DNA of 62,236 nt, filler included, from Babesia bigemina (GCF_000981445.1; 9 parts of 9 records of this genome joined end to end with filler, not necessarily neighbours in it); one strand, 5' to 3'. Positions 34,196-62,236 are shown, counted from the whole stretch's first letter. Translations and numbers: made by a program. The notes: a model not told the origin generated them from the letters alone.

Positions 34196-34210
34196 AGCCA
34201 TAGCAATAAC

Positions 34211-43371: not shown

Positions 43372-43982
43372 TGGTGACCAATGTGCTGCCCAAACTGTTG
43401 ACCAAGGTGCTGACCAATGTGCTGACCAATGTGCTGTCCAACGTGCTGACCAATGTGCTGTCCAACGTGCTGACCAATGTGCTGACCAATGTGCTGACCA
43501 ATGTGCTGACCAATCTGCTGACCAATGCCACGACCAAAGTGGTGACCTAAGTGCTGACCAACGTGCTGACCAACGTGCTGACCAAAGTGGTGACCTATGT
43601 GCTGACCAAAGTGGTGACCTATGTGCTGACCAATGCCATGACCAAAGTGGTGATCCAGATGCTGACCAAAGTGGTGACCAATGTGCTGACCAACGTGCTG
43701 ACCAGAGTGTTGACCAATGTTCTGACCAAAGCGCTGATCAATGTGCTGACCAAAGTGCTGACCAATGTGCTGACCAATGTGCTGACCAATGTGCTGACCA
43801 ATGTGCTGACCAAAGTGCTGACCAACGTGTTGACCAATGTGCTGACCAATGCCATGACCAATGTGCTGACTAATGCTCTGACCAAGGTGCTGACCAAGGT
43901 GCTGACCAATGCCATGACCAAAGTGCTGACCAATGCTATGACCAAAGTGTTGACCAAAGTGCTGACCAATGTGTTGACCAAG
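43372..43982 (+). repeat. 12-bp TGACCAA array
   Basis: Directly visible. Confidence 0.95.
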
Positions 43983-43985
43983 TTG

Positions 43986-44150
43986 ATGGTTCCGGCAGCG
44001 ATGACATGGACACGGCAGCGATGACATGGTTACGGCAGCGATGAAATGGTCACGGCAGCGATGACAGTTACGGCAGCGATGAAATGGTCACGGCAGCGGT
44101 GACATGGTCACGGCAGCGATGGCATGGTCACGGCAGCGATGGCATGGTGA
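43986..44150 (+). repeat. 20-bp array
   Basis: Directly visible. Confidence 0.93.
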
Positions 44151-44167
44151 CCAGAGTAGTGATATAT

Positions 44168-44858
44168 CGACTTTACATCGCCCCTAATCCACTCTACATC
44201 GCCCCTTTACCCACTCTACATCGCCCTTAACCCACTCTACATCGCCCCTTCACCCACTCTGCATCGCTCCCTAACCCACTCTACATCGCTCCTTAACCCA
44301 CTCTACATCGCTCCCTAACCCACTCTACATCGCCCCTTAACCCACTCTACATCGCCCCTTTATCCACTCTACATCGCCCCTTAACCCACTCCACATCGCT
44401 CCTTTATCCACTCCACATCGCTCCCTAACCCACTCTACATCGCCCCTTAACCCACTCTACATCGCTCCTTTATCCACTCTACATCGCTCCTTTATCCACT
44501 CTACATCGCTCCTTTATCCACTCAACATCGCCCCTTAACCCACTCTACATCGCCCCTTAATCCACTCCACATCGCCCCTTTATCCACTCTACATCGCTCC
44601 CTTATCCACTCTACATCGCTCCTTTATCCACTCCACATCGCCCCTTACCCACTCTACATCGCCCCTTTACCCACTCTACATCGCCCCTTAACCCACTCTA
44701 CATCGCTCCCTAACCCACTCTACATCGCCCCTTTATCCACTCCACATCGCTCCTTAACCCACTCTACATCGCTCCCTAACCCACTCTACATCACCCCTTT
44801 ACCCACTCTACATCGCCCCTTTATCCACTCTACATCGCCCCTTAACCCACTCTACATC
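44168..44858 (+). repeat. 21-22-bp array 5' of antigen ORF
   Basis: Directly visible. Confidence 0.95.
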
Positions 44859-44960
44859 CCTCGAATTATCTTGTCTTATTAACGCTATGACCTCTTTAAA
44901 GCATCATAATAACTTGCTGATACTGACCATTCTCTTAGTGACGATGCTACAAGAAGAGCC

Positions 44961-47900
44961 TTGGAGGACATTGTGTCCAAGCTCATTAGCCTTGGTCACC
45001 TTGCTGGACAGCTTGGAGGATTTGTTGGTGAGAGTGAGAGTGTTAAGAAAGCCGTTAAGAATGCTATTATCGCTAAAATTAACAGTAATGAAGAGCTTAA
45101 GAATGTTTACTCTTCTTATGTTACTACCCTTTCTGAGTCTGTCAAGTCTGGTGTCCAGGCTGATGACACCCAGAAAATTAGTGAGCTTAGTAAGTTAGTT
45201 ACTAGTCAAATTGCTGTAATTAATAATCAACTTAATAGCCCTAAAAACCTTTATAATAATCTTCTTTCTTCCCCCTCTCCCTCTGCTGACTCAGCCAAAT
45301 TGCAGTCCAAGTTGGCCGCTTTGAAGGAAGTGGAGAAGCTTTGTGGATTTTATGGGAATCTTAAGAATGCAAAAGATGAGCCTAAAAATCTCCTTGTTAA
45401 TTTATGTGACGGCCTCGAAACATTCCTCGGCTTCAACAAAGACTCCAAAGGCTACGACGGCAGTGGCATTGTGTACTCTGACTTGGACAGGCTGTGTGAC
45501 GGGGTGATGGGATTTTTGTATCAGGTGCTTAAGGATGTCAGCGAGAAACAGCCTTACAGTGTGGGTAAAAATGATTTAAAACATTTTGTTGAGAGTGAAT
45601 TAAGGCCTAAATTATCCGCCGGGCGTGAGGGTTTTAGTGTCATTGAGACGGTGGCGGAGAAGGTGCGGGAGTATAATGGTAAAGTGAAAGAGTCTAACGA
45701 CCATGTGAAAACAATGATAAACAATATGAATAATGACATGAAAACGCTCCAAAATGAGGTAGGTAAAATTTTAGAAAATAATGCTGATTCAGAAAATCTT
45801 GATGAAGTCATGCAGGCTGAAACCTTGGTCACTAAGCTGGCCGACGAGTATGCAAAAAAAGGTATGAATTTCGATAGTAATTTTGTCATAAGAGAAATAA
45901 ACGCATGGAGGACAGGTGCTAATGTTGAGCCAAAGCAGCAATTTAAAGACTTGAATGCTGACCTGAGATTAAAAATAACCCATGCGAGAAACAATATCAC
46001 GCATGAGGCTGAGAGGCTTACGACACTGTCGAAGAAGCAAAAAGAGAATTTGGCTGCGATGACTAGTATGATTAGTAATAAGCTCAAAACGCTTAAAAGC
46101 TGTGTCAATGAGCGAATTTTGAAAGATGTCAATGAGCTTGTTAGCAAGGTGAATGAGAAAGTCGCGGCAATTTTGCAATTGCTAAAGAGGATCAGCGCGA
46201 CGCTTTGGAATTATGTTAATGAATTAGGGAGGTGGATTAAAGATGCAGACGAAATGGTGATTCAAGCAATTAAGGATACGAAAGAAATCGAGCAAAAAGG
46301 ACCGGGTTGGCAAAACCAGGATAACATAAATGAGAAAGCCAAGGAGTTCAAGGACAAGGCTACGGATCTCTACTGGAAATTTGAGGGTGCGAAGCGGTCT
46401 GTGGTTGATGGTATTGATAAGGCAAAAAAAGAAAATGTTAGCGAGTTGGATAAGTGGAAGAAGGCAGGTGACGCGGCCGTTACGAAGGCGAAGCAGAAGT
46501 GCGGTGTCATTGTTGAGAAGTTGAAGGGGAGTGATAGCTCAACACATCCTGAAAGAGACGAAATTACGAAGGCAGCTAAAGAGTTGCAAACTACCGCTGA
46601 TGATCTAAGAAAGAAGGCGTTTGAGGCTAAGACGCAGGTTACCCAGTTGGTCGAAAAAGCGTTAGGGGAGGTTAAAAAGATGGACGAGGAGCTTAGGAAG
46701 AATTTGAAATCGGTGAAGGATGGGATTAAAAGAGAGATGAAGAGTTACATCACGGGAGATCTGAATGACAAGATCAAAGCAGCGCTGACGGAGCTTACTG
46801 ATAAGATTGCTAAAGAAGGTGGAGTACCGCCAGGGCATTTGGATAAGATTGTTGCCGGCGTGAAGGAGTATGCTAAGGGATTCAAGCAGGCGTTTGCGAG
46901 TATAGTACAGGCGTGGGTGAGTGCTATTGTAAAGAGTGAGGGAGTGCAGCAATTGATTGATTGGTATGTCAGCCGTAATAAGAGTTATAGTGCGTTGAAA
47001 GTGTCCGAAGAGCACACAGTGAAAGAAATAGTTATTAAACATGTTACAGATACTTTAAAATCGCTTCCTGGTTCATCCAACACAGCCATGGGTACCCGGA
47101 ATACGCCTCGTGAGAATTTGGCGGATATCAAAGAATATCTTAATAGCTATGCGAAAGAAGTAGTAAATAAGAGACATGCTATAATAGGTCTGATTGAAGG
47201 TGACGTAAAGCAGAATGAGCAAACACAACACTCATCTCGTTATAAAAATGATCTTCTAACAAAAGCTATCCAAACTGTGCTTACGTCAGTGTCGGAGGCG
47301 GCTGGAAAAATGGCTATTTACTTTGAAAAATATTCTGCTACAGCTGAAATAAGTAATCTGGACACCGCTATAAAAGAGGTCACAGGCCTCGGAGATACGC
47401 TTCACGATCAGATTCAAGGGTTCGCTACGGGTACCCAATTTGGCAATGTTACGACGGAAATAGCCAGCAGGGTGCAGGAGAAAATAGGGGAGGATGATAG
47501 AAAGAACATACCAGATGGATTACGTGATCCGGATAAGGTGACTCTTTCCCATCAATTCGCCACCTACAAAAGTCACGTTGATTCATCGAGTCTGCGTAAA
47601 GGCGCTGAGATAACAGGCAGTGAAGGCACCCTCCCGCAAACCATAAAAAGTATTCAAACAACGGTTAATACAAATGAAAACTGCTTGAAAAATGTTGACG
47701 ATACTAATGGCAATCAGCCACAAAAATTTAACAAAGCCACTTTCTCCACCCTGCGCGCCACCGTCGACACGAGTCTGGAACAATTCACCGACGCCGTACA
47801 GAAACTTGTTAAAGGCGACGCTAACAATGAAGTCCACGCATACCTAGAGGATTTGGGGAAAATGCTTAAGGCAGGAGATTCTGTTGAGCTCTCCTCTGAC

Positions 47901-50900
47901 GGCTTAAAAGGTCAACATACTGTCAAAGGCCTCGTGACGATCAAGAGTGAAATTGACGCTGCGCTCGAGGGGATAAAAAATAAAGCTGAGACGGATTTCA
48001 CGGCTGAAAAAAAAGCGACAGAGGGTGGAGCCGTATTCACAACTTTGTCCACCGCGATCACTACGAATCTCAAAGACCTTTTGGCAGCTTTCGAGGAGGC
48101 AGGCAAACAAGTGAACGAACATTTGCAAAAATTAGAAACCAACATCGGCAAGAAGGAACATGGCACAAATGCTGCGGATAACACGCTGCAAAAAATCCAC
48201 GACAATCTTGTGGCCTTGTTAAACGGTGACATAAGCCAGGTCATCAAAGATGCTACAGCCTTCAAAAAACAAGCCAATCAATTGCGTGATAAGACAATAC
48301 GAGATTTGAACGGACACGTCGAAGATGAAGTCAAAAAAGCCGAAACCTCTCTCATCACCCAGGCCAACAAAAACTACGTGACGTCCGTCAAAGAGATGCT
48401 GCAGGCCTTTGCCGACAAGGTGCAGAAGGAACTAAAGCCCCTCCCCGGCGAGATCGACACCGACAGGCAGCACGGCTTTAAGGGTTTTATGCGGACGTTG
48501 CAGGGGACGATTAACGGTGATGAGACCAACGAAGACAATATTGAGAGACTCAAGGGTCTCGTAGGTCAGCTGTCGAGAAATGTGAATCATAAGGATGCGT
48601 TCAAAAATCTGTCGCAGAAATTCAAGGAATTCTGGCATCCACTCAACACGTACATCAAAGCAGAGATCAAACGCGTTCACGAAGCGAATAACGAGAAAAC
48701 CAATCCCAAGCCCACCGGCGTGGAACAGCTGTACACCTCCAAACTCGACGCTGCGCATTCCGCACTCAACAGCCTGCTCGATCACATTAGTAATCACCGC
48801 TATAACCACGAACTCACCTCCATGCTAGATCAGCTCGCCTCCGCAACTGCCACCCTCGCTCCCGAATCCTTCGCCAGGACCACGACTCCTCTGCTCGACA
48901 GTACCGGCAAGGGTGTTGAAGGGTTTGTTAGTGAAGTTGGAAAGGCGTACATCTCCGCGTACGACGGTGAGACGTTCGCCGATGATTTGGTTAAAGGTGA
49001 TAAAACATTGACTAAATATGGCATGTATTACGCCAAAGTATTCCTTACCGCATTGCGTACTCTCGACGTATCGTTGTATGGGTTGAAGCATGAGTGCAAG
49101 AGTCTGACGGGACAAAAAATCAATTCATCCACCGATCTCGGAAGATTGTTCGTGCGCCTCGGCTTTAAGGTTTCGGAAGAGAATAAAGAACACTGGGAGC
49201 TGCAAAACAGAACAGTCATAAGCGGCCAGTACGTTTCCAACAGACTCACTTGGAGGGTCAGCGGCGCCAATGACAACCAACACCTTAAAATGTGTGAATC
49301 GAAGAAACGTGATAATGACAATTACTTCAATGTGTTTGATATAATTAGATGCCTAGCGACTCACGCCAAGCAGTACTTCGAAGTTTGCCACTATTCCACT
49401 TCCACAGCGAAGAGACAACCATGCTCCGCGTACGAAATGCTCATATGGCTGGCAGGGCTTCCACATAACAGGGTGTACGATGAGTTGGTAACTGATGGTC
49501 TTAGTGAACCATTCGCAAATCCTAACAAGCAAACAAAGGAGACAGACGGTGATATCGAGTTCACTGTATTTGACCTGCACGACTCCAATCTGGATGCGTA
49601 CCCTAAACAGATCACGTATAAGGGCGTCGTGAAGGTGCTGAACCACGTATGCTCAGCATCGTATGACGTCTTGACAACAATATCCGGACATGGCGATGCC
49701 ATGAGCATCTACGGAAGCGACTTTTGCAATAACTCACTATCAATGAAGTACCCCTCCAAGGGAGATGATTGTCTCATCACCGTTGTGGACGTACTGCGTA
49801 GACTTCTGCCGCAGCTGCAATACTTGTTCAACCGTTGTAGGCACAGCGCAGACGATTATGGATGGCGCAATTGCCGTTACGGCAGGGATATCCCGTCGGC
49901 CACATCCCAATGTACCGACCACTCAAGCGACAAAGCAGAAAGCCAACCAAAGTGTCAACCAACGTGCCAGGCAAACAGCAAAGTAGATTGCCAACCAACG
50001 TCTCCATTAATGTCCTACTTATACGATTGCTTGCCCGGACATTTACCGCACCAAATAAGCAGTATTGGTTGCAAACCTAAATGTACAACATGCCCTGGTA
50101 GTAAACCCGGAATGCCCTGCTTAACGCCCATGGGATTCCGTTGTTTTTCTGGGTCAACCAAAACAGGGGAGAATGTATGTGAAATACTGCGGTTATTCTT
50201 CGGTGGTGGTCTGCTTTCATCTCTTCTCTGCCTGGTTCCCCAGCCGCCATCTACGTTACCGGAACACTTTGGTTTTGCTCTGTCACTTGGCAGACAGTGG
50301 AATGACTCCGGTAGCAATATAATTGCAGAGTCCTTTGCATCATCTATCGATGGCGCATCTATTGGCCTATATACTGAACCATCAAAACTCAGCGAAGTAC
50401 TTAGGAACACCTATGCTAGCACGCCGAGTGATCATGCATGGCCGCATACGGAAGCTGAAAAATCCGATTTGTCGAGCTTATCGACGACCACGTCATGTAT
50501 GCTTCCTAACAAACGCAACATTTATTGCGCTCCATATCTTTCCACACTATGGCAAGAGAACTATATGTACTTGGCTAAAAAACACGTTAAACTATACTTA
50601 TCGTGGGCCGTCTATCTCCCTTGGGAATTTTGGAAATATCTCGATGAGCTATATACTGCATTTTGTGGTATCTCATGTCAGCAGTACGGATGTCGCAGTT
50701 GTATAAACAGCGACACGTGTAGATCCGGTAAGCATGGTGTGGACTACAACTGCAAATGCTGGAGTATTGTTAGATGTCGCGGAGTGCAAAGCACATTCTA
50801 CAGTTACGGATTCGCATTTGGCGATTCAAAAAAATTGTTGGACGAAGACGAAAAAAGATATTGTCACGATTTCTGTTCTCAATTGAGCAACGTACTTAAT

Positions 50901-51155: not shown

Positions 51156-51294
51156 TTATAGTCACACTTGTAACTCATTGTAACTCACGTAACTACTCAC
51201 CTAGCATCACCTACTCACCTAACTTATGAATTGTGCTTCAATGTTTCGTATCACTCATTAATCGTTGTATGTGATTGTGTAGTAGTTAACTAAA

Positions 51295-51582
51295 GTGGTG
51301 ACCAAAGTGCTGACCAAAGTGGTGACCAATGTGCTGACCAATGCCATGACCAAAGTGGTGACCTAGCACCTGACCAATGTGCTGACCAGCGTGCTGACCA
51401 ATGTGCTGACCAATGCCATGACCAATGCCATGACCAATGCCATGACCAAAGTGGTGACCAATGCCACGACCAACGTGGTGACCAATGTGCTGACCTACCA
51501 CCTGACCAACGTGGTGACCCAAGTGCTGACCAATGCCATAACCAAAGTGCTGACCAACGTGCTGACCAACGTGCTGACCAAG
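51295..51582 (+). repeat. 12-bp array
   Basis: Directly visible. Confidence 0.95.
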
Positions 51583-51585
51583 TTG

Positions 51586-51826
51586 ATGGTCACGGCAGCG
51601 AGGACATGGTCACGGCAGCGATGACATGGTCACAGCAGCGGTGACATCGTTACGGCAGCGATGACATGGTCACGGCAGCGATGACATAGTCACGGCAGCG
51701 ATGACATGGTTACAGCAGCGATGACAAGGTCACGGCAGCGATGACAAGGTCACGGCAGCGATGACATGGTCACGGCAGCGATGACATGGTTACGGCAGCG
51801 ATGACATGGTCTCGGCAGCGATGACA
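51586..51826 (+). repeat. 20-bp array
   Basis: Directly visible. Confidence 0.95.
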
Positions 51827-51850: not shown

Positions 51851-52897
51851 ATCCACTCTACATCGCTCCCTAACCCACTCTACATCGCCCCTTTACCCAC
51901 TCTACATCGCCCCTTTATCCACTCTACATCGCCCCTTTATCCACTCTACATCGCTCCTTTATCCACTCTACATCGCCCCTTAACCCACTCCACATCGCCC
52001 CTTTATCCACTCTTCATCGCTCCCTAACCCACTCCACATCGCCCCTTTACCCACTCCACATCGCCCCTTAACCCACTCTACATCGCTCCCTAACCCACTC
52101 TACATCGCCCCTTATCCACTCTACATCGCCCCTTTAACTACTCTACATCGCCCCTTTATCCACTCTACATCGCTCCTTTATCCACTCTACATCGCCCCTT
52201 AACCCACTCTACATCGCCCCTTACCCACTCTACATCGCTCCTTGATCCACTCCACATCGCCCCTTTACCCACTCTACATCGCCCCTTAACCCACTCTACA
52301 TCGCTCCTTTATCCACTCCACATCGCCCCTTTATCCACTCTACATCGCTCCCTTATCCACTCTACATCGCTCCTTTGTCCACTCCACATCGCTCCCTTAT
52401 CCACTCTACATCGCCCCTTTACCCACTCTACATCGCCCCTTATCCACTCTACATCGCTCCTTATCCACTCCACATCGCTCCCTAACCCACTCTACATCGT
52501 CCCTTAACCCACTCTACATCGCCCCTTTACCCACTCTACATCGCCCCTTTACCCACCCTTCATCGCCCCTTTACCCACTCCACATCGCCCCTTATCCACT
52601 CTACATCGCTCCCTAACCCACTCTACATCGCCCCTTTATCCACTCTACATCGCCCCTTAACCCACTCTACATCACTCCCTAACCCACACTACATCGCCCC
52701 TTTACCCACTCTACATCGCTCCTTTATCCACTCTACATCGCCCCTTAACCCACTCTACATCGCCCCTTTACCAACTCCACATCGCTCCCTTATCCACTCC
52801 ACATCGCCCCTTTATCCACTCTACATCTCCCCTTAACCCACTCCACATCGCCCCTTTACCCACTCCTCATCGCCCCTTAACCCACTCTACATCGCCC
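51851..52897 (+). repeat. 21-22-bp array 5' of antigen ORF
   Basis: Directly visible. Confidence 0.95.
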
Positions 52898-53130: not shown

Positions 53131-56100
53131 TTGAATGACATCCAGTCCAAGTTGCAGCAGGTTAAAAAGCTTGGAGAGAGTCTTAAAGGATTGACTGAAG
53201 AAAACAGTTGTAAAAATCTCTTAGAGAATTTATGTTCCGGCCTCGAAACTTTCCTCGGCTTCAACTCTGAGACTAAAGGCTACGACGGCTCTGGCATTGT
53301 GTACTCCGACCTGGATAGGCTGTGTGACGGGGTGATGGGATTTTTGAGTGGTGTTCTCAGTAACATCAAAGGCCATTTAGGGCAGCATAAAAATGAAATT
53401 AATGATGCAATTGAAGCTTTGAAGACCAATAAACACGGCGGCAAAAAAGGTTTTAATGTCGCGATTGGAAAGGTGGTCGCAGGGGTGCGGGGGTATAATG
53501 ATGCTGTCATGAAGTCGAATAAAAAGGTGAGTGATGTATTAACAAAAATGCAGAAAGATGCAGATAAATATTCAGCAGAAAGATTAGAAAAATTGTTGCC
53601 TCCACGAAATGCGGATGACCCCGTGAAAATTGTTAATCTCATCGTAGCCGCCGACCAGACAGTGGAAGAATGTCTAAAAGAAGCCGACAAATTCAACAAC
53701 GCTTTAGATATGAAAAACAATGCGGAGGAATTAAGAAACGCAATTAGAGACTTAAATCCTAATTTGAGTACTAAAATAGAGAACGTGCGTGAAAATATTA
53801 AGCATGAACGTGAAGGACTGAACAAGTTGGCAGGACATGAAAAGAATGATTTACAGAGTATGGAAGCAAAAATTAAAACAAAGCTTCACGACGTCAAATG
53901 TAAGGTAAATGAGCATATTAAAAAAAAGGTTAAGCAACTGGTGGAGAGGCTGAAGGAAAAGGTTCGTGAAATTAGAGCAAAACTTGTTGACATTGAAGAC
54001 AAGTTGGCGCAGTACGTCAAGGAACTTGAGAGCTGGATGAAAGAGGCCAAGAAAGTCATCGATACCTTATTGACAACGGTAGACAAAATTAAAAAGGAAG
54101 TCGATGGTGATGCAGCGACCAAAAATCTGCCACAACTTCAGGCCGCGATTAAAAAAATCGGAGAAGAACTTGGACATCGGGTTGGCGATTTGGACACTTG
54201 GAAGGGTAAGGCGGAGGGTGTGCTGAGCGAAGCTATTACGAAGACGACGGAAGTGCATGATGATTTGGAGCCGAAGGAAAACAAAAGGGATGCACGTGAT
54301 AAAACGCAAATTGGTAAAGCCTTAGATGGAATTACAAGTGCTAATACACAGATTGGCGTAATAAAAAAAAGTCTCCAAGATGAAGTTGCTAATTTGGATA
54401 AGTGGAAGACGGAGGCAGGAGATATTATTGGCAAGGCCGAGCGTAAATGTAAAAAAATACTTGCAGACGTTGATACGAATGGCTCAACAATTAGGGAAAA
54501 AGCAAAGCTCTTACAAGATTTGGCTGGTAAACTTTTAACGGCTTACAGCTCAGCATATACTAAAATTAAGAGGTTGCCAGGTGAACTGAAATCGATGCTA
54601 TCTAAACTCGAAGAGGTATATCAGCATAAATTAAAAGATGTACATAACAAGGTGATCAGTGCTATTGGCGAAGAAACAGCCCCGGGGAAAGCGACTGGCA
54701 TTTTGGACGTTCTTAACAGGTTGGATGAGCATGTTAAAAATGATCTGGTTAGTCTTAGGGGTAGGATTAAAAATGAAGTAATTGATGCATACGTCAAGAT
54801 GATGAAGGAAATACAGATTACCAGTAATAACGGCGCCGGTACTATTACGCTGAATGTGCCCAGAAGAGATGGGGAGGGGAAGCCTCAGGGCCAGACGCCG
54901 GTAACTCTTAGCGTTGCTGTTGCTGGAAGAATTGCTGACGGTCTAAATGGTAATAATTCACCCATTGCGAAGTGGCTTAATCAGGCTGCAAGTGGACTGC
55001 AGAATAGTATAATTCCAGACTTCAAGTACAAATATCTCTGGACAGACAAAAATCCACTTGACAATGTTGATGCACTCGTCAAGATTCTTCGAACTGGACT
55101 AAAAAATCATGAGAATAAATCAATCATCGACGCTATTGGCGACAGTTTGAACGAAGAACTTCAACAGTTGATCAAGGACAAAGAAAGCATACATTTGAAA
55201 ACAGCAACTGAATCTCCCGACAATGCTCTCATGCCAGAATATAAAGCATCGACAACACGCACTCCTACTGAAGGAGAGCTTAGAGCGGCCATAAAAGATA
55301 TTAAAAGCCACGTTCAATACATGAAGCGTGATAGTCCAACCGATGTCGACGTTGAAAGCTTTCAAGGTTACAACTCTGCGCATACATCTCTCAACATCCA
55401 AAGCGAGAAAGGTGCTAGAGGCGATATTACACAAAAGATTGCCGAAGTGGACAACGCTTTGTCAGACTTCAAGGCGGGTGATCATGTGGACCAACACGGC
55501 CATGGAGCCGTGAGTGAAACCAAAAAGAAAATTACTTCAGCATTCAGAGTGATTGAAAATGAGCTCGAATGGCTGACTAAACTTGTTAGTGATGAGAGCG
55601 GTGGAGATGCATATTCAAACAATGACAATAAAGGTGTCAAGGTGTATCTCGGGCAGCTGCAAAAGGGACTCGAAAGTGAACAGATTCCGTATGCGTTCGC
55701 TAAAGGGCTAAAAATCATTCATGACTCGCTTCACCGTTTGCAAGGCGAAACTCTGCCTCCGCAAATATCTGCCATCCAAGTGGCCGTTGAATCAATTACA
55801 TCAGTTATTACTAAGCTGAGATCAACATTAAGTGGTCAGGTCACAACGAAGTTGGAAGCGTTAAGAACGCATGGCCTTAATGATGGCGACGCACCGTGGA
55901 CAGCTGACGGTCAACCAACCAAAGGTCTCATGACAATCAAGGCGGAAATCGAAAAAATTAAATCCACCAACGTACCCGGTGTTGAAACCAAACTAAAAGA
56001 CCTCTGCACAGCAATTCGATCCATTTGCAGAGACGCCAAGGAATACTTGGAAGGTATGAAAAATGGCAGAATCGATGTTGAACTGAAAAAAATTAGAGAT

Positions 56101-58968
56101 GATATCCACAAACTCCGAACAAATAACTTGGACAACGCGATCAAACAAACTGACACATTCCTCACGCAATTTGCCGACAAAGCCGGAGAACAAATCGTCA
56201 AAGATCTCGAACAGGACGCGAACATTGAAGTGACACAAGCCGAAACTGATATCATTCATGAATTACGTAAAAGGTATATCGCCTTTATCAAATTGCTGCT
56301 CGCAGACTTCTCCACTAAATGCAAGAGTGAGCTCAATGGGCTTCCCGCCGCAATAACGGCGGACGCCGACAAGGGTGCGAAAGGCTTTATGAAGCAATTC
56401 GAAGATAAGTTCATTAAGGACGATAAATGTATCGAGGGCATCAAGAAAATCGAGGCTACATCACCCGCACAAAAACAATCTCCGCTGACTCAGGCTGCCG
56501 GAAAGCTAAATCACGCAGTAAGACGCTTTTTCAACTATTATCACAAACAAGCGGATTTCGCTTCCGACTTCACCAAACTCAAGCCGACTAAGGATGCCCT
56601 TCACACTTTGCTTGACGGCATACGCGAGTCGCAGCGCTTCGACTACCAATTTCGTCAGAATCTGGATTCATTTAACGACGTTATTGGCAAACTCGCTCCT
56701 CAACAATTTGGCGTCTCCTCCACGTCGATGCTGCAATCTCTCAAGGAAGGCTTTACCGCCCTAGTCACTGCGCTCGACAAGGCCTACATCTCGACCTACG
56801 ACAGTGAGACGTTTGGCGGTGAGATGTTTGAGAGACAGAAATTAACGCCGTATGGCGCAAAATTCGCCAAAATATGCCTCACCGTGGTCTGCACCCTAAA
56901 GGCCACGTTGACCGACTTGACGCACAATTGCAAGAGTCTACGTGGACAGCAAATTAATAAGTCCACCGACGTGGGAAGATCGTTTGTCGCCCACGGCTAC
57001 GCGGTCTCCGATGCTACGCTGCAGAACGGTGAGTTGCAAAACAAACCGACAGTGGCGGGGGAGAACGTTGCTAAGCGGCTGCTGCTAGCAATTAGCGGTG
57101 CCACAGACAACGCACATCTTAGATGGTGTGAATCGAACAAGCAGAGAAAAGACAATCACTTCCACGTCTTCGACGCCATTGACTGCATATTCAGCCACTT
57201 CGAGCAGTACAACGAACTCTGCCACCTGCTCACGGCATCATCGAGGCAACATCCGTGCTCCGTGTACGACATATTAATCTGGCTCAGCGGTTTCCCGTAC
57301 ACTGCAGTATATGCTACGATGCGTGATATCACCATCAGTGACCTATTTGACAACCCGCATAAGAAGGCGGCAGGCGACGACGAACTTGAGCTCACATCGA
57401 CTGACATGGCAGCCCAATCCATAACAGCACACCCCCGGAACATATCGTATAACTACGTACGTAAAGCCGTGGAACACATCTGTGCAACGTCGTATGACGT
57501 ATTGACTGCCGTTGTCGGCACTGGCGACTCCAGGACCGTCTACGCCTCCGACTTCTGCAACAACTCATTCAACTTCCATTACCCATCCGATCCGTCGGAC
57601 TGCATGGACATGCTGCTGGACCTACTGCGCCGATTGTTGCCCGTGTTCCGGTTCTTGGAACTGCAGTGTAACATCAAGCCCGAACACCACGGCTGGTCAC
57701 AGTGCCGCTACGGGAGGGACATCCCTACAACGAAATCGCAGTGTAACGAGCACTCAAACGAAGAACCAAACGGCCAACCAAAGTGCCAAGTAAACTGTCA
57801 ACCAACGTCCCCGCTAATGTTATACCTCAGTGACAGCCTCCCTGGCCATCTGCCGCACCAACTGCAGTCAGTGGGATGCAGGGCGAAATGCAGCACCTGC
57901 TCCAAGAGCGCTCCAGGGCAACCGTGCCTGCTTCCTCTCGGATTCAAGGGCTTCTCAGGAAGCACCAAAACGGGCAGACAGTTGCGTGACGCAATCAAGA
58001 TCTTCATCGGTACAGGCTTAATATCCTCACTGATGTGCCTTCTGCCGAAGCCACCATCGACGCTGCCCGAGCACTTCCAGTTTGTATTCACGTTGGTTGG
58101 TGCGTTTAATGCTAACAGAGATGTCAACTCAAATGCTGTCCACGCTGCGTTTGTGAAGGCAATAAGGAAGCAGTCCATCGACTTGTATGCGGAGCCATCA
58201 GAACTCACAGGTGCGCTTCAGAAGGCTTATAACAGCAACAAGCAGCACGACGGTACGGAGCATCCCAAAGCTTCAGACGCCGACTTGTCAACATTGTCTA
58301 AAGCAAAAACATGTAATTATCCGAACAAGGATGTTCACTGCGCTCCGTACCTGTCCACGTTGCACAGTGATGCATACCACTACGCCGCCGAGAAGCACGC
58401 CGGTCTCTACCTGTCATGGGCAGTGTACTTACCGTGGTCGTTCTGGCAGTGTCTTGAATCTTTGTTCAGGGCGTTTACCAATATATCCTGCCAGGATTGG
58501 GCATGTCGTCGCTGTACGCACGGCACGGCTTGTAAACGGGGTAAGCATGGCGCTGCCTATAATTGCCAGTGCAAAGGCCTAGTTGAATGCCGCGGTGTCA
58601 TAAGCACGTTGTATAGTTTCGGATTCACGTTCGGCAATCCAGCAACGCTTTCAGCTGCAGAGGGAAAAAGGTATTGCCACAATTTCCACCGACAACTCCA
58701 CAATGTATTAAATTCCAACTACTTCAGAACGCTGTTCGAAAAGTGCGACGAATTCATTTTCACCATCCGCGGACCGTTCCTGTGGATGACCGTCGCACTC
58801 TGGTCACTGTCCCTCTTCTACCTCGTCTGCGTCATGGTTGGCAGACTGGATGTGCTCCACATCCGCTCACACCTGAGGATACCTTCGTCGCACAAGATAA
58901 CAGCGCAATCATTGTTGGCGGCGGCGCAAGTCGGAAGGCTTGCCAAGATATCGTATCTACAGCCGTGA
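53131..58968 (+). CDS. ves-like variant surface antigen family protein (AKISYLQP tail class)
   Basis: 1945-codon ORF with all family motifs; track start is TTG and the first in-frame ATG is 53335. Confidence 0.85.
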   Translation: MNDIQSKLQQVKKLGESLKGLTEENSCKNLLENLCSGLETFLGFNSETKGYDGSGIVYSDLDRLCDGVMGFLSGVLSNIKGHLGQHKNEINDAIEALKTNKHGGKKGFNVAIGKVVAGVRGYNDAVMKSNKKVSDVLTKMQKDADKYSAERLEKLLPPRNADDPVKIVNLIVAADQTVEECLKEADKFNNALDMKNNAEELRNAIRDLNPNLSTKIENVRENIKHEREGLNKLAGHEKNDLQSMEAKIKTKLHDVKCKVNEHIKKKVKQLVERLKEKVREIRAKLVDIEDKLAQYVKELESWMKEAKKVIDTLLTTVDKIKKEVDGDAATKNLPQLQAAIKKIGEELGHRVGDLDTWKGKAEGVLSEAITKTTEVHDDLEPKENKRDARDKTQIGKALDGITSANTQIGVIKKSLQDEVANLDKWKTEAGDIIGKAERKCKKILADVDTNGSTIREKAKLLQDLAGKLLTAYSSAYTKIKRLPGELKSMLSKLEEVYQHKLKDVHNKVISAIGEETAPGKATGILDVLNRLDEHVKNDLVSLRGRIKNEVIDAYVKMMKEIQITSNNGAGTITLNVPRRDGEGKPQGQTPVTLSVAVAGRIADGLNGNNSPIAKWLNQAASGLQNSIIPDFKYKYLWTDKNPLDNVDALVKILRTGLKNHENKSIIDAIGDSLNEELQQLIKDKESIHLKTATESPDNALMPEYKASTTRTPTEGELRAAIKDIKSHVQYMKRDSPTDVDVESFQGYNSAHTSLNIQSEKGARGDITQKIAEVDNALSDFKAGDHVDQHGHGAVSETKKKITSAFRVIENELEWLTKLVSDESGGDAYSNNDNKGVKVYLGQLQKGLESEQIPYAFAKGLKIIHDSLHRLQGETLPPQISAIQVAVESITSVITKLRSTLSGQVTTKLEALRTHGLNDGDAPWTADGQPTKGLMTIKAEIEKIKSTNVPGVETKLKDLCTAIRSICRDAKEYLEGMKNGRIDVELKKIRDDIHKLRTNNLDNAIKQTDTFLTQFADKAGEQIVKDLEQDANIEVTQAETDIIHELRKRYIAFIKLLLADFSTKCKSELNGLPAAITADADKGAKGFMKQFEDKFIKDDKCIEGIKKIEATSPAQKQSPLTQAAGKLNHAVRRFFNYYHKQADFASDFTKLKPTKDALHTLLDGIRESQRFDYQFRQNLDSFNDVIGKLAPQQFGVSSTSMLQSLKEGFTALVTALDKAYISTYDSETFGGEMFERQKLTPYGAKFAKICLTVVCTLKATLTDLTHNCKSLRGQQINKSTDVGRSFVAHGYAVSDATLQNGELQNKPTVAGENVAKRLLLAISGATDNAHLRWCESNKQRKDNHFHVFDAIDCIFSHFEQYNELCHLLTASSRQHPCSVYDILIWLSGFPYTAVYATMRDITISDLFDNPHKKAAGDDELELTSTDMAAQSITAHPRNISYNYVRKAVEHICATSYDVLTAVVGTGDSRTVYASDFCNNSFNFHYPSDPSDCMDMLLDLLRRLLPVFRFLELQCNIKPEHHGWSQCRYGRDIPTTKSQCNEHSNEEPNGQPKCQVNCQPTSPLMLYLSDSLPGHLPHQLQSVGCRAKCSTCSKSAPGQPCLLPLGFKGFSGSTKTGRQLRDAIKIFIGTGLISSLMCLLPKPPSTLPEHFQFVFTLVGAFNANRDVNSNAVHAAFVKAIRKQSIDLYAEPSELTGALQKAYNSNKQHDGTEHPKASDADLSTLSKAKTCNYPNKDVHCAPYLSTLHSDAYHYAAEKHAGLYLSWAVYLPWSFWQCLESLFRAFTNISCQDWACRRCTHGTACKRGKHGAAYNCQCKGLVECRGVISTLYSFGFTFGNPATLSAAEGKRYCHNFHRQLHNVLNSNYFRTLFEKCDEFIFTIRGPFLWMTVALWSLSLFYLVCVMVGRLDVLHIRSHLRIPSSHKITAQSLLAAAQVGRLAKISYLQP

Positions 58969-59109
58969 TCATCGTCACATTTGTAATTCACAACAACTCA
59001 CTTAGCGAATCACCTACTCACCTAACCAACAAACGTAGTCTAATGTCTCGAATTACTCTAGCGGCAACCTGTGAACTAAATAGCACCTAGATTAGGTTAT
59101 GAATAACGA

Positions 59110-59584
59110 CCAGGCAAAGTGCTAACCTAGCAACCAGGCAAAGTGATAAGCAAGCACCCAGGCAAAGTGGTAAGCTAGCAACCAGGCAAAGTGATAAGCT
59201 GGCACACAGGCAAAGTGTTAAGCTGGCAACCAGGCAAAGTGTTAACCTAGCACCCAGGCAAAGTGCTAACCTAGCAACCAGGCTAAGTGCTGAGCTGGCA
59301 CCCAGGCTAAGTGCTAACCTAGCATCCAGGCAAAGTGGTAAGCTAGCACACAGGCAAAGTGGTAAGCTAGCACCCAGGCAACGTGTTAAGCTGGCACCCA
59401 GGCAAAGTGGTAAGCAAGCACCCAGGCAACGTGCTAACCTAGCACCCAGGCAAAGTGTTAACCTAGCACACAAGCTAAGTGCTAAGCTGGCACACAGGCA
59501 AAGTGCTAAGCTGGCATTCAGGCAACGTGTTGACCTAGCACACAGGCAAAGTGATAAGCTGGCACCCAGGCGAAGTGCTAAGCT
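59110..59584 (+). repeat. 24-bp array
   Basis: Same unit as 21305-22183. Confidence 0.95.
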
Positions 59585-60078
59585 GGCGGATGAACCGTAA
59601 TTTGGTAGGTGTTGTAGCACGTTGATTGCCTGGTGCGTTGAGCTGTGCGTTGACTGTGAGAGGTGTCCGCGTTGCCTATTGAGTCAGTGTCACGTGAGGC
59701 TGGGTGATTGGTTGCTAACGTAGGCGGTCGTAAGGACCGCGGCGGGTGACCTAAGTCGTGTGTTGCGAGTCACTGGCACGTGGCGTAATAGGCGTTGGCC
59801 TGGTTAGGTAGCGTTTATGGGCGGCAATGTAGCGATTGTTAACATCACATTTGGGCACGTAGCCGACGTGCTCCGCCAGTATGGCGCCGATACCGGGGCT
59901 CGTAGCACGGTGCTGCTGCACTGTGGGAGTTGAGCGCACGGGTCGCTGCAATTTTAATGGCGTCGCCAATATTCAATAATTTAGAGTGGCTGTTGGCGCT
60001 GATCACATGCGTCGCGTCAGGGCAGCTGTGGTATCCCGGGCAGCGTGGGTGTCCGTGGCCCGGGCTGGGGGGATACAG
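59585..60078 (+). repeat. Conserved ~495-bp element (copy 4)
   Basis: Matches 22184-22679. Confidence 0.8.
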
Positions 60079-60090
60079 GGGTGAGGTGAG

Positions 60091-60491
60091 TGTTGATGAG
60101 GGGACTGGGAGCGGCAGTGGTACGTGTTGCAGTTGGTGAGTGCTGCTTGAGTGATTGATATGTTTGCAGGTTGAGGGGAGTGGGCGCGGCAGTGGTAGTG
60201 TTGCAGTTGGTGAGTGCTGCTTGAGTGATTGATATGTTTGCAGGTTGAGGGCAGTGGGAGCGGCAGTGGTAGTGTGGCAGTTGGTGAGTGCGTTGCTAGG
60301 TGAGTGATATGTTTGCAGGTTGAGGGGACTGGGAGCGGCAGTGGTACGTGTTGCAGTTGGTGAGTGCTGCTTGCGTGATTGATATGTTCGCAGGTTGAGG
60401 GGAGTGGGAGCGGCAGTGGTAGTGTTGCAGTTGGTGAGTGCGTTGCTGGGTGATTGATATGTTCGCAGGTTGAGGGGAGTGGGAGGGGAAG
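60091..60491 (+). repeat. ~75-bp intron/exon-like repeats (5 intron-like parts)
   Basis: GTGAGTGC..GATATGTT(T/C)GCAG units. Confidence 0.8.
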
Positions 60492-61037
60492 ATGACGATG
60501 GGTTGGAGGAAGACGTGCAGATGTGATACTGGTTGTATACAGTTTCAACCATGTAAATGCTGCCCATGGTGTTGTAAAGAATGTATTAAAGGCATTTATA
60601 CCAGTTGCGATGTATGTGCAGCAAATTCCTATCTGAAGCGGCTTAGGAAGCAATGCAATCCTAACGTATGTAAAGCCGGCAAAACGGATTGCACTAATAT
60701 TTACAAATGTGAATGTAACTGTTGTCGACAGAAATGTAAAGAGAGGGATCCCGTCTGCACGCCCCTCGCTCCTCCCCCTCCACCGCCTCCCGCTGATTCC
60801 TCCGATGTTCAGGATCACGCCGCCGGTCAAGAGCTTCTCCCCCGTACCGAAGCTCTCGAACAAGAGAACAATTCTCCACCTTTCCGCCCTAACCCCCAAA
60901 CCATCGCCGCCGTCATCGTTGCCATCATCGTCGCCATCATCCTGCTCGACCTGTGCATCTTCCGCTTTCCGGTGGGCCGCAACATCCGCGATTTCCTCGT
61001 ACGCAAGATACCCTTCTGCATCGCGTTTTACAGCTGA
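60492..61037 (+). CDS. Small Cys-rich (18+2 Cys) TM-anchored protein (tail B: LDLCIFRFPVGRNIRDFLVRKIPFCIAFYS)
   Basis: 181 aa; same start context and Cys scaffold as the paralogues, Pro-rich linker and TM. Confidence 0.75.
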   Translation: MTMGWRKTCRCDTGCIQFQPCKCCPWCCKECIKGIYTSCDVCAANSYLKRLRKQCNPNVCKAGKTDCTNIYKCECNCCRQKCKERDPVCTPLAPPPPPPPADSSDVQDHAAGQELLPRTEALEQENNSPPFRPNPQTIAAVIVAIIVAIILLDLCIFRFPVGRNIRDFLVRKIPFCIAFYS

Positions 61038-61171
61038 TCGCAGCAATTTGTTAGCGCAAACATCGTCATCCATTTTCCACTGATCACCTAACTGCCAACT
61101 GACATCTAATGTCTAGACGGAGTAATGATTGCGTTGATGGCCAATCGCATGGGCAGTGAGTTGACTATAAC

Positions 61172-61282
61172 CCCGCCCCTTACATCATCGCTCCCATACT
61201 CATCATCATCATCGTCATCTGCGTCATGAGCTACTTCCGCATCCGGCCGTTCCACAGGGTGCGGTATCTACTGCGCAGCTAA
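61172..61282 (+). pseudogene. Orphan TM/tail cassette A (PAPYIIAPILIIIIVICVMSYFRIRPFHRVRYLLRS*)
   Basis: Manual translation; matches the C-termini of the other three small genes. Confidence 0.6.
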
Positions 61283-61342
61283 TGACAATAAAGCAACTGG
61301 CAACTGACGTCTAATGTTGTTGACAGAGTAATGATTGCGTTG

Positions 61343-62236
61343 ATGACCAATGTGCTGACCAACGTGCTGACCAACGTGTTGACCAAAGTGCTGACCAAAG
61401 TGCTGACCAATGCCACGACCAAAGTGTTGACCAAGGTGCTGACCAAGATGCTGACCAACGTTTTGACCAATGCCATGAACAATGTGCTGACCAAGGTGTT
61501 GACCTAAGTGGTGACCAAAGTGGTGACCAAAGTGGTGACCAACGTGCTGACCAATGTGCTGACCAACGTGCTGACCAATGCCATGACCAAAGTGTTAACC
61601 AAAGTGCTGACCAAAGTGGTGACCAAGGTGCTGACCAATGTGTTGACCAAGGTGCTGACCAAGGTGCTGACCAAAGTGCTGACATGGTTACGGCAGCGAT
61701 GACATGGTCACGGCAGCGATGACATGGTCACGGCAGCGATGACATGGACACAAGTGGTGATTATTATCCACTCCACATCGCCCATTAACCCACTCTACAT
61801 CGCTCCCTAACCCACTCTTCATCGCCCATTAACCCACTCTACATCGCCCCTTTATCCACTCTACATCGCCCCTAATCCACTCCACATCGCTCCCTAACCC
61901 ACTCCACATCGCTCCCTTATCCACTCTACATCGCCCCTTATCCACTCTACATCGCCCCTTATCCACTTTACATCGCTCCCTAACCCACTCTACATCGCCC
62001 CTTAATCCACTCCACATCGCTCCCTAATCCACTCCACATCGCTCCTTTACCCACTCTACATCGCTCCCTAATCCACTTCACACCGCCCCTTAACCCACTC
62101 TACATCGCTCCCTTATCCACTTCACACCGCCCCTTTATCCACTCTACATCGCCCCTTATCCACTCTACATCGCTCCCTAATCCACTCTACATCGCCCCTT
62201 AACCCACTCTACATCGCCCCTTTATCCACTCTACAT
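61343..62236 (+). repeat. 12-bp array (61343-61683), 20-bp array (to ~61750) and 21-22-bp array (61767 to window end)
   Basis: Same units and order as elsewhere; predicts another antigen ORF beyond the window. Confidence 0.93.

What the first reader, a model, noticed from the sequence alone, without database searches (positions are those of the whole stretch)
43372..62236. Fixed repeat grammar packages each antigen gene as a cassette (reminiscent of VSG 70-bp repeats)
Seen in one gap-free contig: 12mer>20mer>22mer>ORF>3' motif>12mer>20mer>22mer>ORF>3' motif>24mer>495-bp element>75mers>Cys gene>spare tail>12mer>20mer>22mer. The same order and polarity hold in the other gene-bearing contigs, including those on the minus strand, and all six large ORFs have a 22-mer array directly upstream. 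Known: Trypanosoma brucei VSG cassettes are bounded by upstream 70-bp repeats and a conserved 3' end that serve as gene-conversion homology, and B. bovis ves1 varies by segmental gene conversion. Inference: these arrays are recombination, silencing or promoter platforms for an antigen archive.
Basis: partly seen in the sequence, partly recalled or inferred. Interest (0 to 1): 0.8.

Follow-up and report, generated by a model that had tools for sequence, protein, structure and literature searches.

The report
Satellite-spaced ves1b antigen gene arrays
In these contigs of a Babesia bigemina-type cattle blood parasite, every large variant-antigen (ves1b) gene is preceded on its own strand by the same three short-repeat arrays in the same order, a spacer that likely helps the parasite control and reshuffle its antigen genes, though no function has been tested.

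Summary
The window is nine small contigs joined by N spacers. Wherever sequence continues, a 12-mer array is followed by a 20-mer array (8 of 8). A 20-mer array is followed by a 22-mer array (8 of 8). A 22-mer array is followed by a large gene on the same strand (6 of 6). A 16-base motif follows every complete large gene.

The large genes belong to the Babesia bigemina ves1b (VESA1b) family. The small Cys-rich membrane gene has its own upstream block: 24-mers, a conserved ~510-bp element, then 75-mers.

The array junctions are conserved between loci, so the fixed order is inherited and not reassembled at each locus. Repeat units and gene ends are far more alike between loci than the gene cores (0.84 and 0.72 against 0.40-0.45). 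Paralogs are strongly mosaic.

I read the block as an rDNA-spacer-like intergenic region of head-to-tail ves1b genes. It is likely kept uniform by exchange between loci. It likely serves as flanking homology and carries the promoter.

The function is untested. No RNA data were available. Most recent conversion tracts are internal: only 1 of 37 reaches the 5' end.

I found no paper describing these arrays. The architecture matches the VSG comparison; the mechanism is not shown.

The parts
43375..43981 (+). 12-mer array (unit about TGACCAAWGTGC, about 50 units), at the contig start
43989..44148 (+). 20-mer array (ATGGTCACGGCAGCGATGAC, 7.9 copies)
   Evidence: conserved 12>20 junction
44170..44858 (+). 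22-mer array (CTCTACATCGCYCCYTWAYCCA, 31.5 copies)
   Evidence: conserved 20>22 junction
44887..51155 (+). ves1b-family gene g5. The start-module ATG at 44887 is out of frame with the long frame. The long frame is open from 44913, its first in-frame ATG (MGFL) is at 45507, and the stop is at 51155.
51208..51223 (+). 16-nt 3' motif CACCTACTCACCTAAC after g5
51295..51581 (+). 12-mer array (23.9 copies)
51586..51826 (+). 20-mer array (12.1 copies)
51853..52897 (+). 22-mer array (47.7 copies)
52922..58968 (+). ves1b-family gene g6. The start module is duplicated (ATGs at 52922 and 53057, both out of frame). The long frame is open from 53083, with MGFL ATG at 53335 and stop at 58968.
59011..59026 (+). 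16-nt 3' motif after g6
59110..59584 (+). 24-mer array (AGTGCTAAGCTAGCACCCAGGCAA, 19.8 copies). It contains the dyad GTGCTA-AGC-TAGCAC.
59585..60096 (+). Non-repetitive element of about 510 bp upstream of the small gene, conserved at the other small-gene loci
   Evidence: 423 invariant columns, mean column identity 79% with gaps counted
60097..60485 (+). 75-mer array (5.2 copies). Each unit has a GTGAGT and a TTTGCAG, which look like a splice donor and acceptor.
60492..61037 (+). Small Cys-rich single-pass membrane protein gene (181 aa), tail type B
61220..61279 (+). Spare (unused) partial tail of type A downstream of the small gene
61344..61683 (+). 12-mer array (28.3 copies)
61680..61751 (+). 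20-mer array (3.6 copies)
61766..62236 (+). 22-mer array (21.6 copies), cut by the contig end
23..7351 (+). Contig 1: 3' motif of a cut upstream gene (23-38), 12-mer 109-323, 20-mer 328-616, 22-mer 631-1759, ves1b g1 1786-7146, 3' motif 7187-7202, and 12-mer 7271-7351 cut by the contig end
7452..14801 (-). Contig 2: 22-mer 13592-14800, then ves1b g2 on the minus strand (start modules at 13563 and 13421, 3' end cut by the contig end)
14902..24237 (+). Contig 3: 22-mer 14902-15581, ves1b g3 15610-21159, 3' motif 21202-21217, 24-mer 21309-22183, conserved element, 75-mers 22699-23092, small gene 23096-23554, spare tail B 23647-23787, 12-mer 23927-23957, 20-mer 23975-24237
24338..29727 (.). Contigs 4 (+) and 5 (-). 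Both carry 24-mer or 75-mers, small gene, spare tail B, then 12-mer, 20-mer and 22-mer in the gene's own orientation.
33055..43271 (+). Contig 7: 20-mer, 22-mer 33158-34195, ves1b g4 (no start module; MGFL ATG 34619, stop 39835), 3' motif 39874-39889, then 12-mer, 20-mer, 22-mer. Contig 8 (40646-43271) is 22-mer only, 119 units.

Best explanation
The 12-mer, 20-mer and 22-mer arrays together form the whole spacer between head-to-tail ves1b variant-antigen genes. The spacer was inherited with the gene as one duplication unit and is likely kept uniform by sequence exchange between loci. It would then work like an rDNA-type intergenic spacer.

Shown:
- The order, polarity and junctions are the same at every locus.
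- The arrays and the two gene ends are much more alike between loci than the gene cores.
- The paralogs are mosaics.

Inferred:
- Unequal crossing-over or gene conversion between spacers and between conserved 3' ends homogenises the flanks. This leaves each unique core between two long tracts of family-wide homology.
- Whole genes could then be duplicated, lost or replaced between loci. That would be the 'transposition' of ves1 genes that Jackson et al. 2014 inferred from strain comparisons.
- The 22-mer array ends 28 nt before the first ATG, and no unique upstream element exists. The ves1b promoter or its control sites therefore likely lie inside the array.
For: 1. Fixed series: 8/8, 8/8 and 6/6 adjacencies, always on the gene's strand.
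2. The junction sequences 12>20 (..TGACCAAGTTGATGGTYACGGCAGCG..) and 20>22 (..AAGTGGTGATTATYATCCACTCTACATCG..) are conserved at 8 loci each. The spacer therefore has one origin.
3. Mean pairwise nucleotide identity along the six gene units is 0.84 at the 22-mer/start, 0.80 just before MGFL, 0.40-0.45 through the core, 0.5-0.6 in the C-terminal third, and 0.72-0.73 at the 3' end.
4. Among 419 22-mer units from 10 arrays, 17 of 22 positions are at least 94% invariant and 5 toggle between two bases. Within-array identity equals between-array identity (0.868 and 0.868). There is no neighbour effect: lag 1 is 0.873, lags 2-12 are 0.864-0.873. The 12-, 20- and 24-mers behave the same way.
5. For each window gene the best-matching paralog changes along its length. 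For g1, residues 1-100 are 0.99 identical to P0055 and the next bin reaches at most 0.56. The cores reach only 0.23-0.62. The C-terminal parts reach 0.85-0.99 for g2, g4 and g6.
6. There are 69 tracts of at least 200 aa at 95% identity or more, in 56 otherwise diverged pairs.
7. All combinations of N-terminal type and tail type exist: SNI-K 20, SNI-N 5, xAVK-K 8, xAVK-N 28.
8. The N-terminal types are shared with B. ovata, while the tails are species-specific.
9. An independent DNA run holds the same junctions, including 22-mer > CCTCGAATCACCT. Summed depths were about 14,000-128,000 on 22-mers, 1,900-3,800 on 20-mers, 158-1,331 on the 5' block, 794-1,141 on the 3' end, and 0-6 on the core. 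The tool warns that these depths are not copy numbers.
10. The start-module ATG lies 28 nt after the last 22-mer core in g1 and g3. The small gene, by contrast, has a unique conserved ~510-bp upstream element.
11. Jackson et al. 2014 (PMC4066756; sections 21-23 read, passages of section 24) report frequent ves1 transposition between loci. They also report two dominant VESA1B proteins plus 17 minor ones.
Against: - Most recent exchange is segmental and internal. Of 37 usable long tracts, 30 are internal and only 1 reaches the 5' anchor. Six reach the 3' end, against 0.4 expected, but the always-conserved last ~60 residues inflate that number. A further 32 of the 69 tracts were dropped because one partner lacked a complete tail or an MGFL anchor.
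- No breakpoint inside an array was seen directly.
- The equal within- and between-array identity could partly be an assembly artefact. Nearly every contig ends in an array, so reads from different loci may have been mixed.
- Only one assembly and one other run were available, and no DNA from related species.
- The promoter role rests on position alone. No RNA run was listed.
- Uniform spacers in tandem gene arrays can arise neutrally.
Confidence: 0.5

Rival explanations
1. The arrays are mainly a regulatory or chromatin platform. Rows of binding sites for a sequence-specific factor (for example an ApiAP2 protein) would set promoter activity, silencing or one-at-a-time expression of ves1b. Recombination between arrays would be only a side effect.
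For: - Strict co-orientation with the gene, and the 22-mer array ending 28 nt before the first ATG.
- No other conserved upstream element for ves1b, whereas the small gene has one.
- Unit sequences are highly constrained: 17 of 22 positions are at least 94% invariant over 419 units.
- The 12-mer and 24-mer share an AAGTGCT core, and the 24-mer holds a dyad.
- Proteomics in Jackson et al. 2014 show two dominant VESA1B proteins among many genes.
- Recalled precedents: the SAG1 27-bp repeat promoter of Toxoplasma, and SPE2 arrays bound by PfSIP2 upstream of upsB var genes.
Against: - No transcript, chromatin or binding data of any kind.
- The arrays are very long and variable (15 to more than 119 units of the 22-mer), which is more than a promoter needs.
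- Orientation and order are equally explained by descent.
- Invariant positions can result from homogenisation alone.
Confidence: 0.25
2. The arrays are neutral satellites that hitch-hiked with a tandemly duplicating gene unit and expand and contract by slippage. They would have no role in expression or in antigen switching.
For: - Conserved junctions show simple descent from one ancestral spacer.
- Copy numbers vary widely between loci (12-mer 2 to about 50, 20-mer 2-14, 22-mer 15 to more than 119).
- Most recent conversion tracts do not involve the 5' flank.
Against: - The arrays are better conserved between loci (0.87 per unit) than the C-terminal coding domain, which I take to be under purifying selection (0.5-0.6).
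- There are no array-private variants.
- The whole spacer consists of arrays, so any ves1b promoter has to be in or next to them.
Confidence: 0.2
3. The pattern is an assembly artefact of collapsed repeats.
For: Eight of the nine contigs begin or end inside an array. Array lengths and the internal order of units are therefore unreliable.
Against: - The same junctions recur in eight independent contigs, with unique sequence on at least one side.
- They also occur in contigs of an independent run, at the 12>20, 20>22 and 22-mer>start-module junctions.
Confidence: 0.02

Closest known systems
Trypanosoma brucei VSG cassettes with upstream 70-bp repeats and a conserved 3' end (recalled knowledge)
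   Same: A variable surface-antigen gene body lies between an upstream array of imperfect short repeats in fixed orientation and a conserved 3' end. There are many copies in head-to-tail arrays, and the flanks are far more alike than the cores.
   Different: - Here there are three different arrays in series, not one.
- The repeats abut the start codon.
- No sequence relation was tested.
- Recent exchange tracts are mostly internal, and only 1 of 37 reaches the 5' anchor.
- No expression site is known.
Babesia bovis ves1 loci of active transcription and segmental gene conversion (Jackson et al. 2014, introduction read; the rest recalled)
   Same: The gene superfamily is the same (ves1), and the paralogs are mosaic in the way segmental gene conversion produces.
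   Different: B. bovis loci are divergent ves1 alpha/beta pairs around a short bidirectional promoter. Here every visible neighbour pair is head-to-tail, and the spacer is 1.5-2 kb of satellites.
Plasmodium falciparum upsB var upstream regions with SPE2 arrays (PfSIP2) and rep20/TARE repeats (recalled knowledge)
   Same: Family-specific upstream region of a variant-antigen gene that contains arrays of short repeats. In Plasmodium these are linked to silencing and to the clustering of chromosome ends.
   Different: - The Plasmodium repeats lie kilobases upstream of a unique promoter and mostly at chromosome ends.
- Here the arrays fill the spacer up to the ATG and occur between internal tandem genes.
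- No binding factor is known.
rDNA intergenic spacers with several sub-repeat arrays in fixed order (Xenopus, Drosophila, plants; recalled knowledge)
   Same: Head-to-tail gene units are separated by spacers built of different sub-repeat arrays in a constant order. Copy numbers vary, and the arrays are homogenised between units.
   Different: The genes here are highly diverged protein-coding antigen genes, not identical rRNA genes. Enhancer or promoter activity of the sub-repeats has not been shown.
Toxoplasma gondii SAG1 promoter made of six 27-bp tandem repeats (recalled knowledge)
   Same: An apicomplexan surface-antigen gene with short tandem repeats directly upstream and no other evident promoter element.
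   Different: SAG1 has six units against 15 to more than 119 here. SAG1 is a single-copy gene. Promoter activity here is only inferred.

Membership tests
BbigVes1b (VESA1b) gene family of Babesia bigemina (Jackson et al. 2014) | Conserved VESA C-terminal domain with one transmembrane helix, shared with proteins labelled ves1b | tested here: met
   - Residues 1250-1882 of g5 match 270 proteins at E<=0.001, nearly all from B. bigemina or B. ovata.
- Four of six accessions looked up (CDR97488, CDR96098, CDR96635, CDR97485) are labelled ves1b in supplementary file 2 of Yamagishi et al. 2017.
- The other two carry no label but sit in the same modules.
- A hydrophobic stretch and a conserved tail are visible.
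BbigVes1b (VESA1b) gene family of Babesia bigemina (Jackson et al. 2014) | VESA1 N-terminal region (Pfam VESA1_N; the motif ..KKLTDCPENLRESIDWL.. seen in P0014, P0048 and P0105) | tested here: not met
   - No VESA1_N hit at E<=0.01 for the six window genes. There was also none for P0048, P0014 or P0105, so the Pfam model is not informative here.
- tblastn with the first 110-400 residues of those three proteins matches the window genes only from about residue 84-113 onward, or residue 34 for g2.
- The window genes therefore lack the first ~110 codons of the few 'complete' copies.
VSG-type recombination cassette (70-bp repeats + conserved 3' end) | Upstream repeat array and conserved 3' end flanking a variable gene | tested here: met
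   (architecture only; not homologous sequence)
VSG-type recombination cassette (70-bp repeats + conserved 3' end) | Gene-conversion tracts bounded upstream by the repeats and downstream by the 3' end | tested here: inconclusive
   - 1 of 37 usable long tracts reaches the 5' anchor, 6 of 37 reach the 3' end, and 30 are internal.
- In g1 the first 100 aa are 0.99 identical to P0055, then identity drops sharply.
- The DNA upstream of the database paralogs could not be seen.
VSG-type recombination cassette (70-bp repeats + conserved 3' end) | Silent copies without a promoter, expressed only after copying into an expression site | not testable with these tools
   No RNA run was listed and no genome is held.
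Babesia bovis-type locus of active transcription | Divergent (head-to-head) ves1 pair around a short bidirectional promoter | tested here: not met
   All visible neighbours are head-to-tail: g5>g6, the cut upstream gene >g1, and g1, g4, g3 and g6 followed by same-strand arrays or genes.
rDNA-type intergenic spacer | Tandem gene units separated by several sub-repeat arrays in constant order with variable copy number, homogenised between units | tested here: met
rDNA-type intergenic spacer | Sub-repeats act as enhancers or spacer promoters | not testable with these tools
   No transcript data.

The most novel reading that the evidence does not exclude
Most ves1b copies of B. bigemina are silent cassettes. 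In this reading they have lost the first ~110 codons and any usable start. In the window the ATG is in frame in only 2 of 6 genes, out of frame in 3 and absent in 1. The lost part has been replaced by the triple satellite block. That block and the conserved 3' end would serve as the homology by which a cassette is copied into one of a few complete, expression-competent ves1b sites. This would be a VSG- or MSG-style archive-and-expression-site system in an apicomplexan.
Probability: 0.2. Interest if true: 0.85.

Novelty: new variant of a known kind. Interest (0 to 1): 0.6.

Why it matters
Babesia bigemina is a major cattle pathogen. How it varies its surface antigen is much less understood than in B. 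bovis.

Jackson et al. 2014 inferred frequent 'transposition' of ves1 genes but gave no sequence basis. In the passages and sections I read, and in the searches, nobody describes these arrays.

A family-wide, homogenised satellite spacer gives that process a concrete, testable substrate. It also provides a candidate promoter or silencing element.

It further explains why the reference assembly breaks into hundreds of small ves-bearing contigs. Short-read counts of ves1b genes are therefore likely too low.

Tried and rejected
- Whole genome of the window: not held.
- RNA evidence: no RNA holder listed. Runs X2 and X3 gave one contig each, with only 18-24-nt pieces.
- Idea that the arrays are expanded pieces of the lost N-terminal exon. 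I compared the best local score of array translations against the N-termini of P0048, P0014 and P0105 with 300 shuffled units. The results were p=0.46 (12-mer), 0.06 (20-mer), 0.28 (22-mer) and 0.95 (24-mer). Not supported.
- Looking for the arrays in other species through annotated proteins. The 137-aa open frame of a 22-mer array gave 3907 candidates, none at E<=0.001. The same attempt for the 12-mer frame on the representative library met a full queue three times and was dropped.
- Metagenome scans for a 20-mer dimer and for a degenerate 22-mer dimer: 0 matches each. One search failed because the machine was busy and was repeated.
- Rfam: 0 matches in the whole window.
- Inverted repeats in 58900-61400: none.
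- Pfam: only sub-threshold coiled-coil-type hits for the large proteins and none for the small ones.
- Earlier notes of this scan: nothing on this genome or on these repeats.
- A canonical intron that would put the start-module ATG in frame in g2, g5 and g6: no GT lies between the ATG and the acceptor-like CTCTTAG. The true start remains unresolved.
- Literature search was too loose and returned only general satellite papers.
- G-quadruplex motifs with loops up to 12 nt: 50 of 83 in the window lie in 22-mer arrays, but their 11-nt central loops make them weak candidates. I mention them only in passing.
Full report
**What the window is**

The 62,236 bases are nine contigs joined by N44-TTAATTAATTAA-N44 separators. 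The contigs are 1-7351, 7452-14801, 14902-24237, 24338-26519, 26620-29727, 29828-32954, 33055-40545, 40646-43271 and 43372-62236. The finding covers the last and longest one.

One contig (29828-32954) starts with about 110 copies of CCCTAAAA, a telomere repeat, followed by another satellite.

No whole genome is held for the window.

**The observation**

Coordinates are in the parts list.

Across the other contigs the same rules hold without exception:
- Each 12-mer array that is not cut by a contig end is followed by a 20-mer array (8 of 8).
- Each such 20-mer array is followed by a 22-mer array (8 of 8).
- Each such 22-mer array is followed by a large gene (6 of 6).
- All lie on the strand of that gene, including the two minus-strand contigs.

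The 16-mer CACCTACTCACCTAAC occurs six times, with none expected in 100 shuffles. Five copies follow the five complete large genes. One lies at the very start of contig 1, ahead of a 12-mer array. So contig 1 also begins in the tail of an upstream gene.

A shorter core, TYACCTAAC, occurs ten times, against 0.88 expected. All ten are 3' of a gene: the six above plus the four small genes.

The small Cys-rich gene has its own upstream series of 24-mers, a conserved element of about 510 bp, and 75-mers. This is seen in four contigs. Each small-gene locus carries a second, unused transmembrane-plus-tail module downstream.

Arrays make up 16,975 of 58,405 non-telomeric bases, and 4,772 of 18,865 in the contig of the finding.

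**What the genes are**

The six large frames encode proteins of 1,740-1,880 residues counted from their first in-frame ATG. Each has a long helical, highly variable N-terminal two-thirds, a Cys-rich C-terminal third, one hydrophobic helix and a conserved tail. Pfam gives only sub-threshold hits.

The C-terminal 633 residues of g5 match 270 database proteins at E<=0.001. The best 120 are almost all 'hypothetical protein, conserved' of Babesia bigemina, with some from B. ovata. The window's own proteins are listed there without names, and I did not try to name the record. The organism is B. bigemina or something very close to it. This is an inference.

I looked up ten accessions and searched six of them in supplementary file 2 of Yamagishi et al. 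2017 (PMC5660447). Four are labelled ves1b. The two from unassigned contigs carry no label but sit in the same modules.

Ves1b is one of the two VESA1 families that Jackson et al. 2014 defined for B. bigemina (PMC4066756; section 22 read). Their proteomics found two co-dominant VESA1B proteins and 17 minor ones (section 23). 'Antigen gene' is therefore a fair label by family membership. Nothing about these particular copies has been tested.

The small gene belongs to an uncharacterised B. bigemina family of at least 15 members. Two of these have locus tags adjacent to ves1b genes: BBBOND_0111400 next to 0111390, and 0305030 next to 0305020.

**Why the order is fixed**

The sequences at the 12>20 and 20>22 transitions are themselves conserved at eight loci each. 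The 22-mer array always ends in the same start module..CTCGAATTACTTCGCCATAATAYCGCT-ATG-ACCTCT...

The whole spacer is therefore one ancestral sequence that was copied together with the gene. The 'grammar' is descent, not repeated assembly. Only the copy numbers differ: 12-mer 2 to about 50, 20-mer 2-14, 22-mer 15 to more than 119.

**What is unusual**

The flanks are much better conserved than the genes. Mean pairwise identity along the six aligned units is:
- 0.84 over the last 22-mers and the start
- 0.80 in the block just before the conserved MGFL
- 0.40-0.45 through about 3.5 kb of core, which is essentially unalignable
- 0.5-0.6 in the C-terminal domain
- 0.72-0.73 at the 3' end and flank

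I examined 419 22-mer units from ten arrays. Seventeen positions are at least 94% invariant. Five positions toggle between two bases, in at least 20 combinations. Units are no more alike within an array than between arrays (0.868 in both cases). Neighbouring units are no more alike than distant ones (lag 1 is 0.873; lags 2-12 are 0.864-0.873). The 12-, 20- and 24-mers behave the same way.

This is what exchange between loci would give. The caveat is that nearly every contig ends in an array, so the assembler may have mixed reads from different loci.

An independent DNA run (X1, contigs only) argues against a pure artefact. It holds the 12>20, 20>22 and 22-mer>start-module junctions. 2,544 distinct short contigs lay on a 401-base stretch. 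Summed depths were very high on the arrays and on both gene ends, but only 0-6 on the core. The tool warns that these depths are not copy numbers.

**Recombination in the family**

The paralogs are mosaics. For each window gene the best-matching relative changes from one 100-residue bin to the next:
- g1 is 0.99 identical to P0055 over its first 100 residues, then reaches at most 0.56 with any of the paralogs compared.
- The cores reach only 0.23-0.62.
- The last 500-800 residues of g2, g4 and g6 reach 0.85-0.99.

Among the 117 database relatives plus the six window genes, I found 69 tracts of at least 200 residues at 95% identity or more, in 56 otherwise diverged pairs.

All combinations of N-terminal type and tail type occur. 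The N-terminal types are shared with B. ovata, while the tails are species-specific. That points to homogenisation of the 3' end within each species.

Of the 37 tracts whose partners both have a complete tail and an MGFL anchor, 30 are internal, 6 reach the 3' end and 1 reaches the 5' anchor. The other 32 tracts were dropped. The 3' count is inflated by the always-conserved tail. The DNA upstream of the database paralogs could not be seen.

**The 5' end**

A few family members (P0014, P0048, P0105; partly P0060, P0094, P0095) start with about 110 residues that include KKLTDCPENLRESIDWL. From memory, this resembles the VESA1 N-terminus of B. bovis.

The six window genes lack this part. tblastn matches begin at about residue 84-113 of those proteins, or residue 34 for g2. 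In its place stand the arrays and the start module.

The module's ATG is in frame with the long frame in g1 and g3. It is out of frame in g2, g5 and g6, and duplicated in g2 and g6. It is absent in g4.

The stretch between the module and MGFL evolves like coding sequence, with third-position changes. I found no canonical intron that would repair the frame.

So either these copies start at MGFL, or they are spliced in a way I cannot see, or many of them cannot be translated on their own. This remains open and is the basis of the novel case.

**Mechanism**

My best reading (0.5) is an rDNA-spacer-like intergenic region. It is inherited with the gene and kept uniform by unequal crossing-over or conversion between loci. 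Each unique core is thereby left between two family-wide homology tracts.

That would allow duplication, loss and replacement of whole genes, which is what Jackson et al. 2014 inferred as 'transposition' (passages). The 22-mer array is also the only place where a promoter could sit close to the gene.

The rivals are:
- a mainly regulatory or chromatin role (0.25);
- neutral hitch-hiking satellites (0.2);
- an assembly artefact (0.02).

**Comparison and novelty**

The architecture resembles VSG cassettes, upsB var upstream regions, rDNA spacers and the SAG1 repeat promoter. All four are recalled from memory and none was tested for sequence relation. It differs from the divergent B. bovis locus of active transcription.

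The arrays are not described in Jackson et al. 2014 (term searches of the full text; sections 21-23 read). They are also not described in the passages returned by my term searches of the B. ovata and B. caballi genome papers. The searches listed no paper whose title or abstract concerns such arrays. Subscription papers and the supplements of Jackson et al. were not seen.

I rate this as a new variant of a known kind, with interest 0.6.

Noticed in passing
window 29832-32930: A chromosome-end contig. About 110 copies of CCCTAAAA (TTTTAGGG-type telomere) run directly into an 82/121-bp and 22-bp satellite (ATCTTATTCAGCTACTCATCTT, about 95 copies). This satellite is unrelated to the ves1b arrays.
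   Followed up: no
window 60097-60485, 22699-23092, 24976-25199, 29196-29436: Each 75-mer upstream of the small Cys-rich gene contains GTGAGT and, about 34 nt later, TTTGCAG. The array looks like repeated mini-exon plus intron modules in a 5' leader. The last unit runs into the ATG.
   Followed up: partly
window 23647-23787, 25770-25907, 28461-28607 (-), 61220-61279: Every small-gene locus carries a second, unused transmembrane-plus-tail module of the other type. Three loci use tail A and keep B downstream. One uses B and keeps a partial A. These could be alternative 3' exons or recombination leftovers.
   Followed up: partly
window 60492-61037 and homologs P0121-P0135: The small Cys-rich membrane protein belongs to an uncharacterised B. 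bigemina family of at least 15 members. Two members have locus tags next to ves1b genes. Their position recalls the smorf genes of B. bovis, which Jackson et al. say have no homolog in B. bigemina.
   Followed up: partly
window 44887, 52922, 53057, 13563 (-), 13421 (-): The conserved start module after the 22-mers has its ATG out of frame with the long frame in three of six genes, and the module is duplicated in two. In its own frame it reads as a short hydrophobic peptide (MTSLNHYYNLLILTILLL..).
   Followed up: partly
22-mer arrays, e.g. window 40646-43270: On the strand antisense to the gene, units with C at positions 12 and 19 give GGG-N4-GGGG-N11 runs. Of 83 long-loop G-quadruplex motifs in the window, 50 lie in 22-mer arrays, and most of the rest lie in the telomere repeat.
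   Followed up: partly
window 43320-44027 (-) and other frames through arrays: Long open frames run through the 12-mer, 24-mer and 75-mer arrays, for example a 235-aa frame reading GQHIGQHF... They arise because the repeat periods are multiples of three or are stop-free. They are not genes.
   Followed up: yes
window 40646-43271: A whole contig consists only of 22-mer units (119 units, 2.6 kb). Some arrays are therefore longer than any array seen next to a gene here.
   Followed up: no
proteins P0003-P0120: B. ovata relatives share the N-terminal sequence types of B. bigemina but have their own uniform tail (..NVKYFSP). B. bigemina has two tail types (..AKISYLQP and ..NRVFYLQP). This is a sign of concerted evolution of the 3' end within species.
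   Followed up: partly
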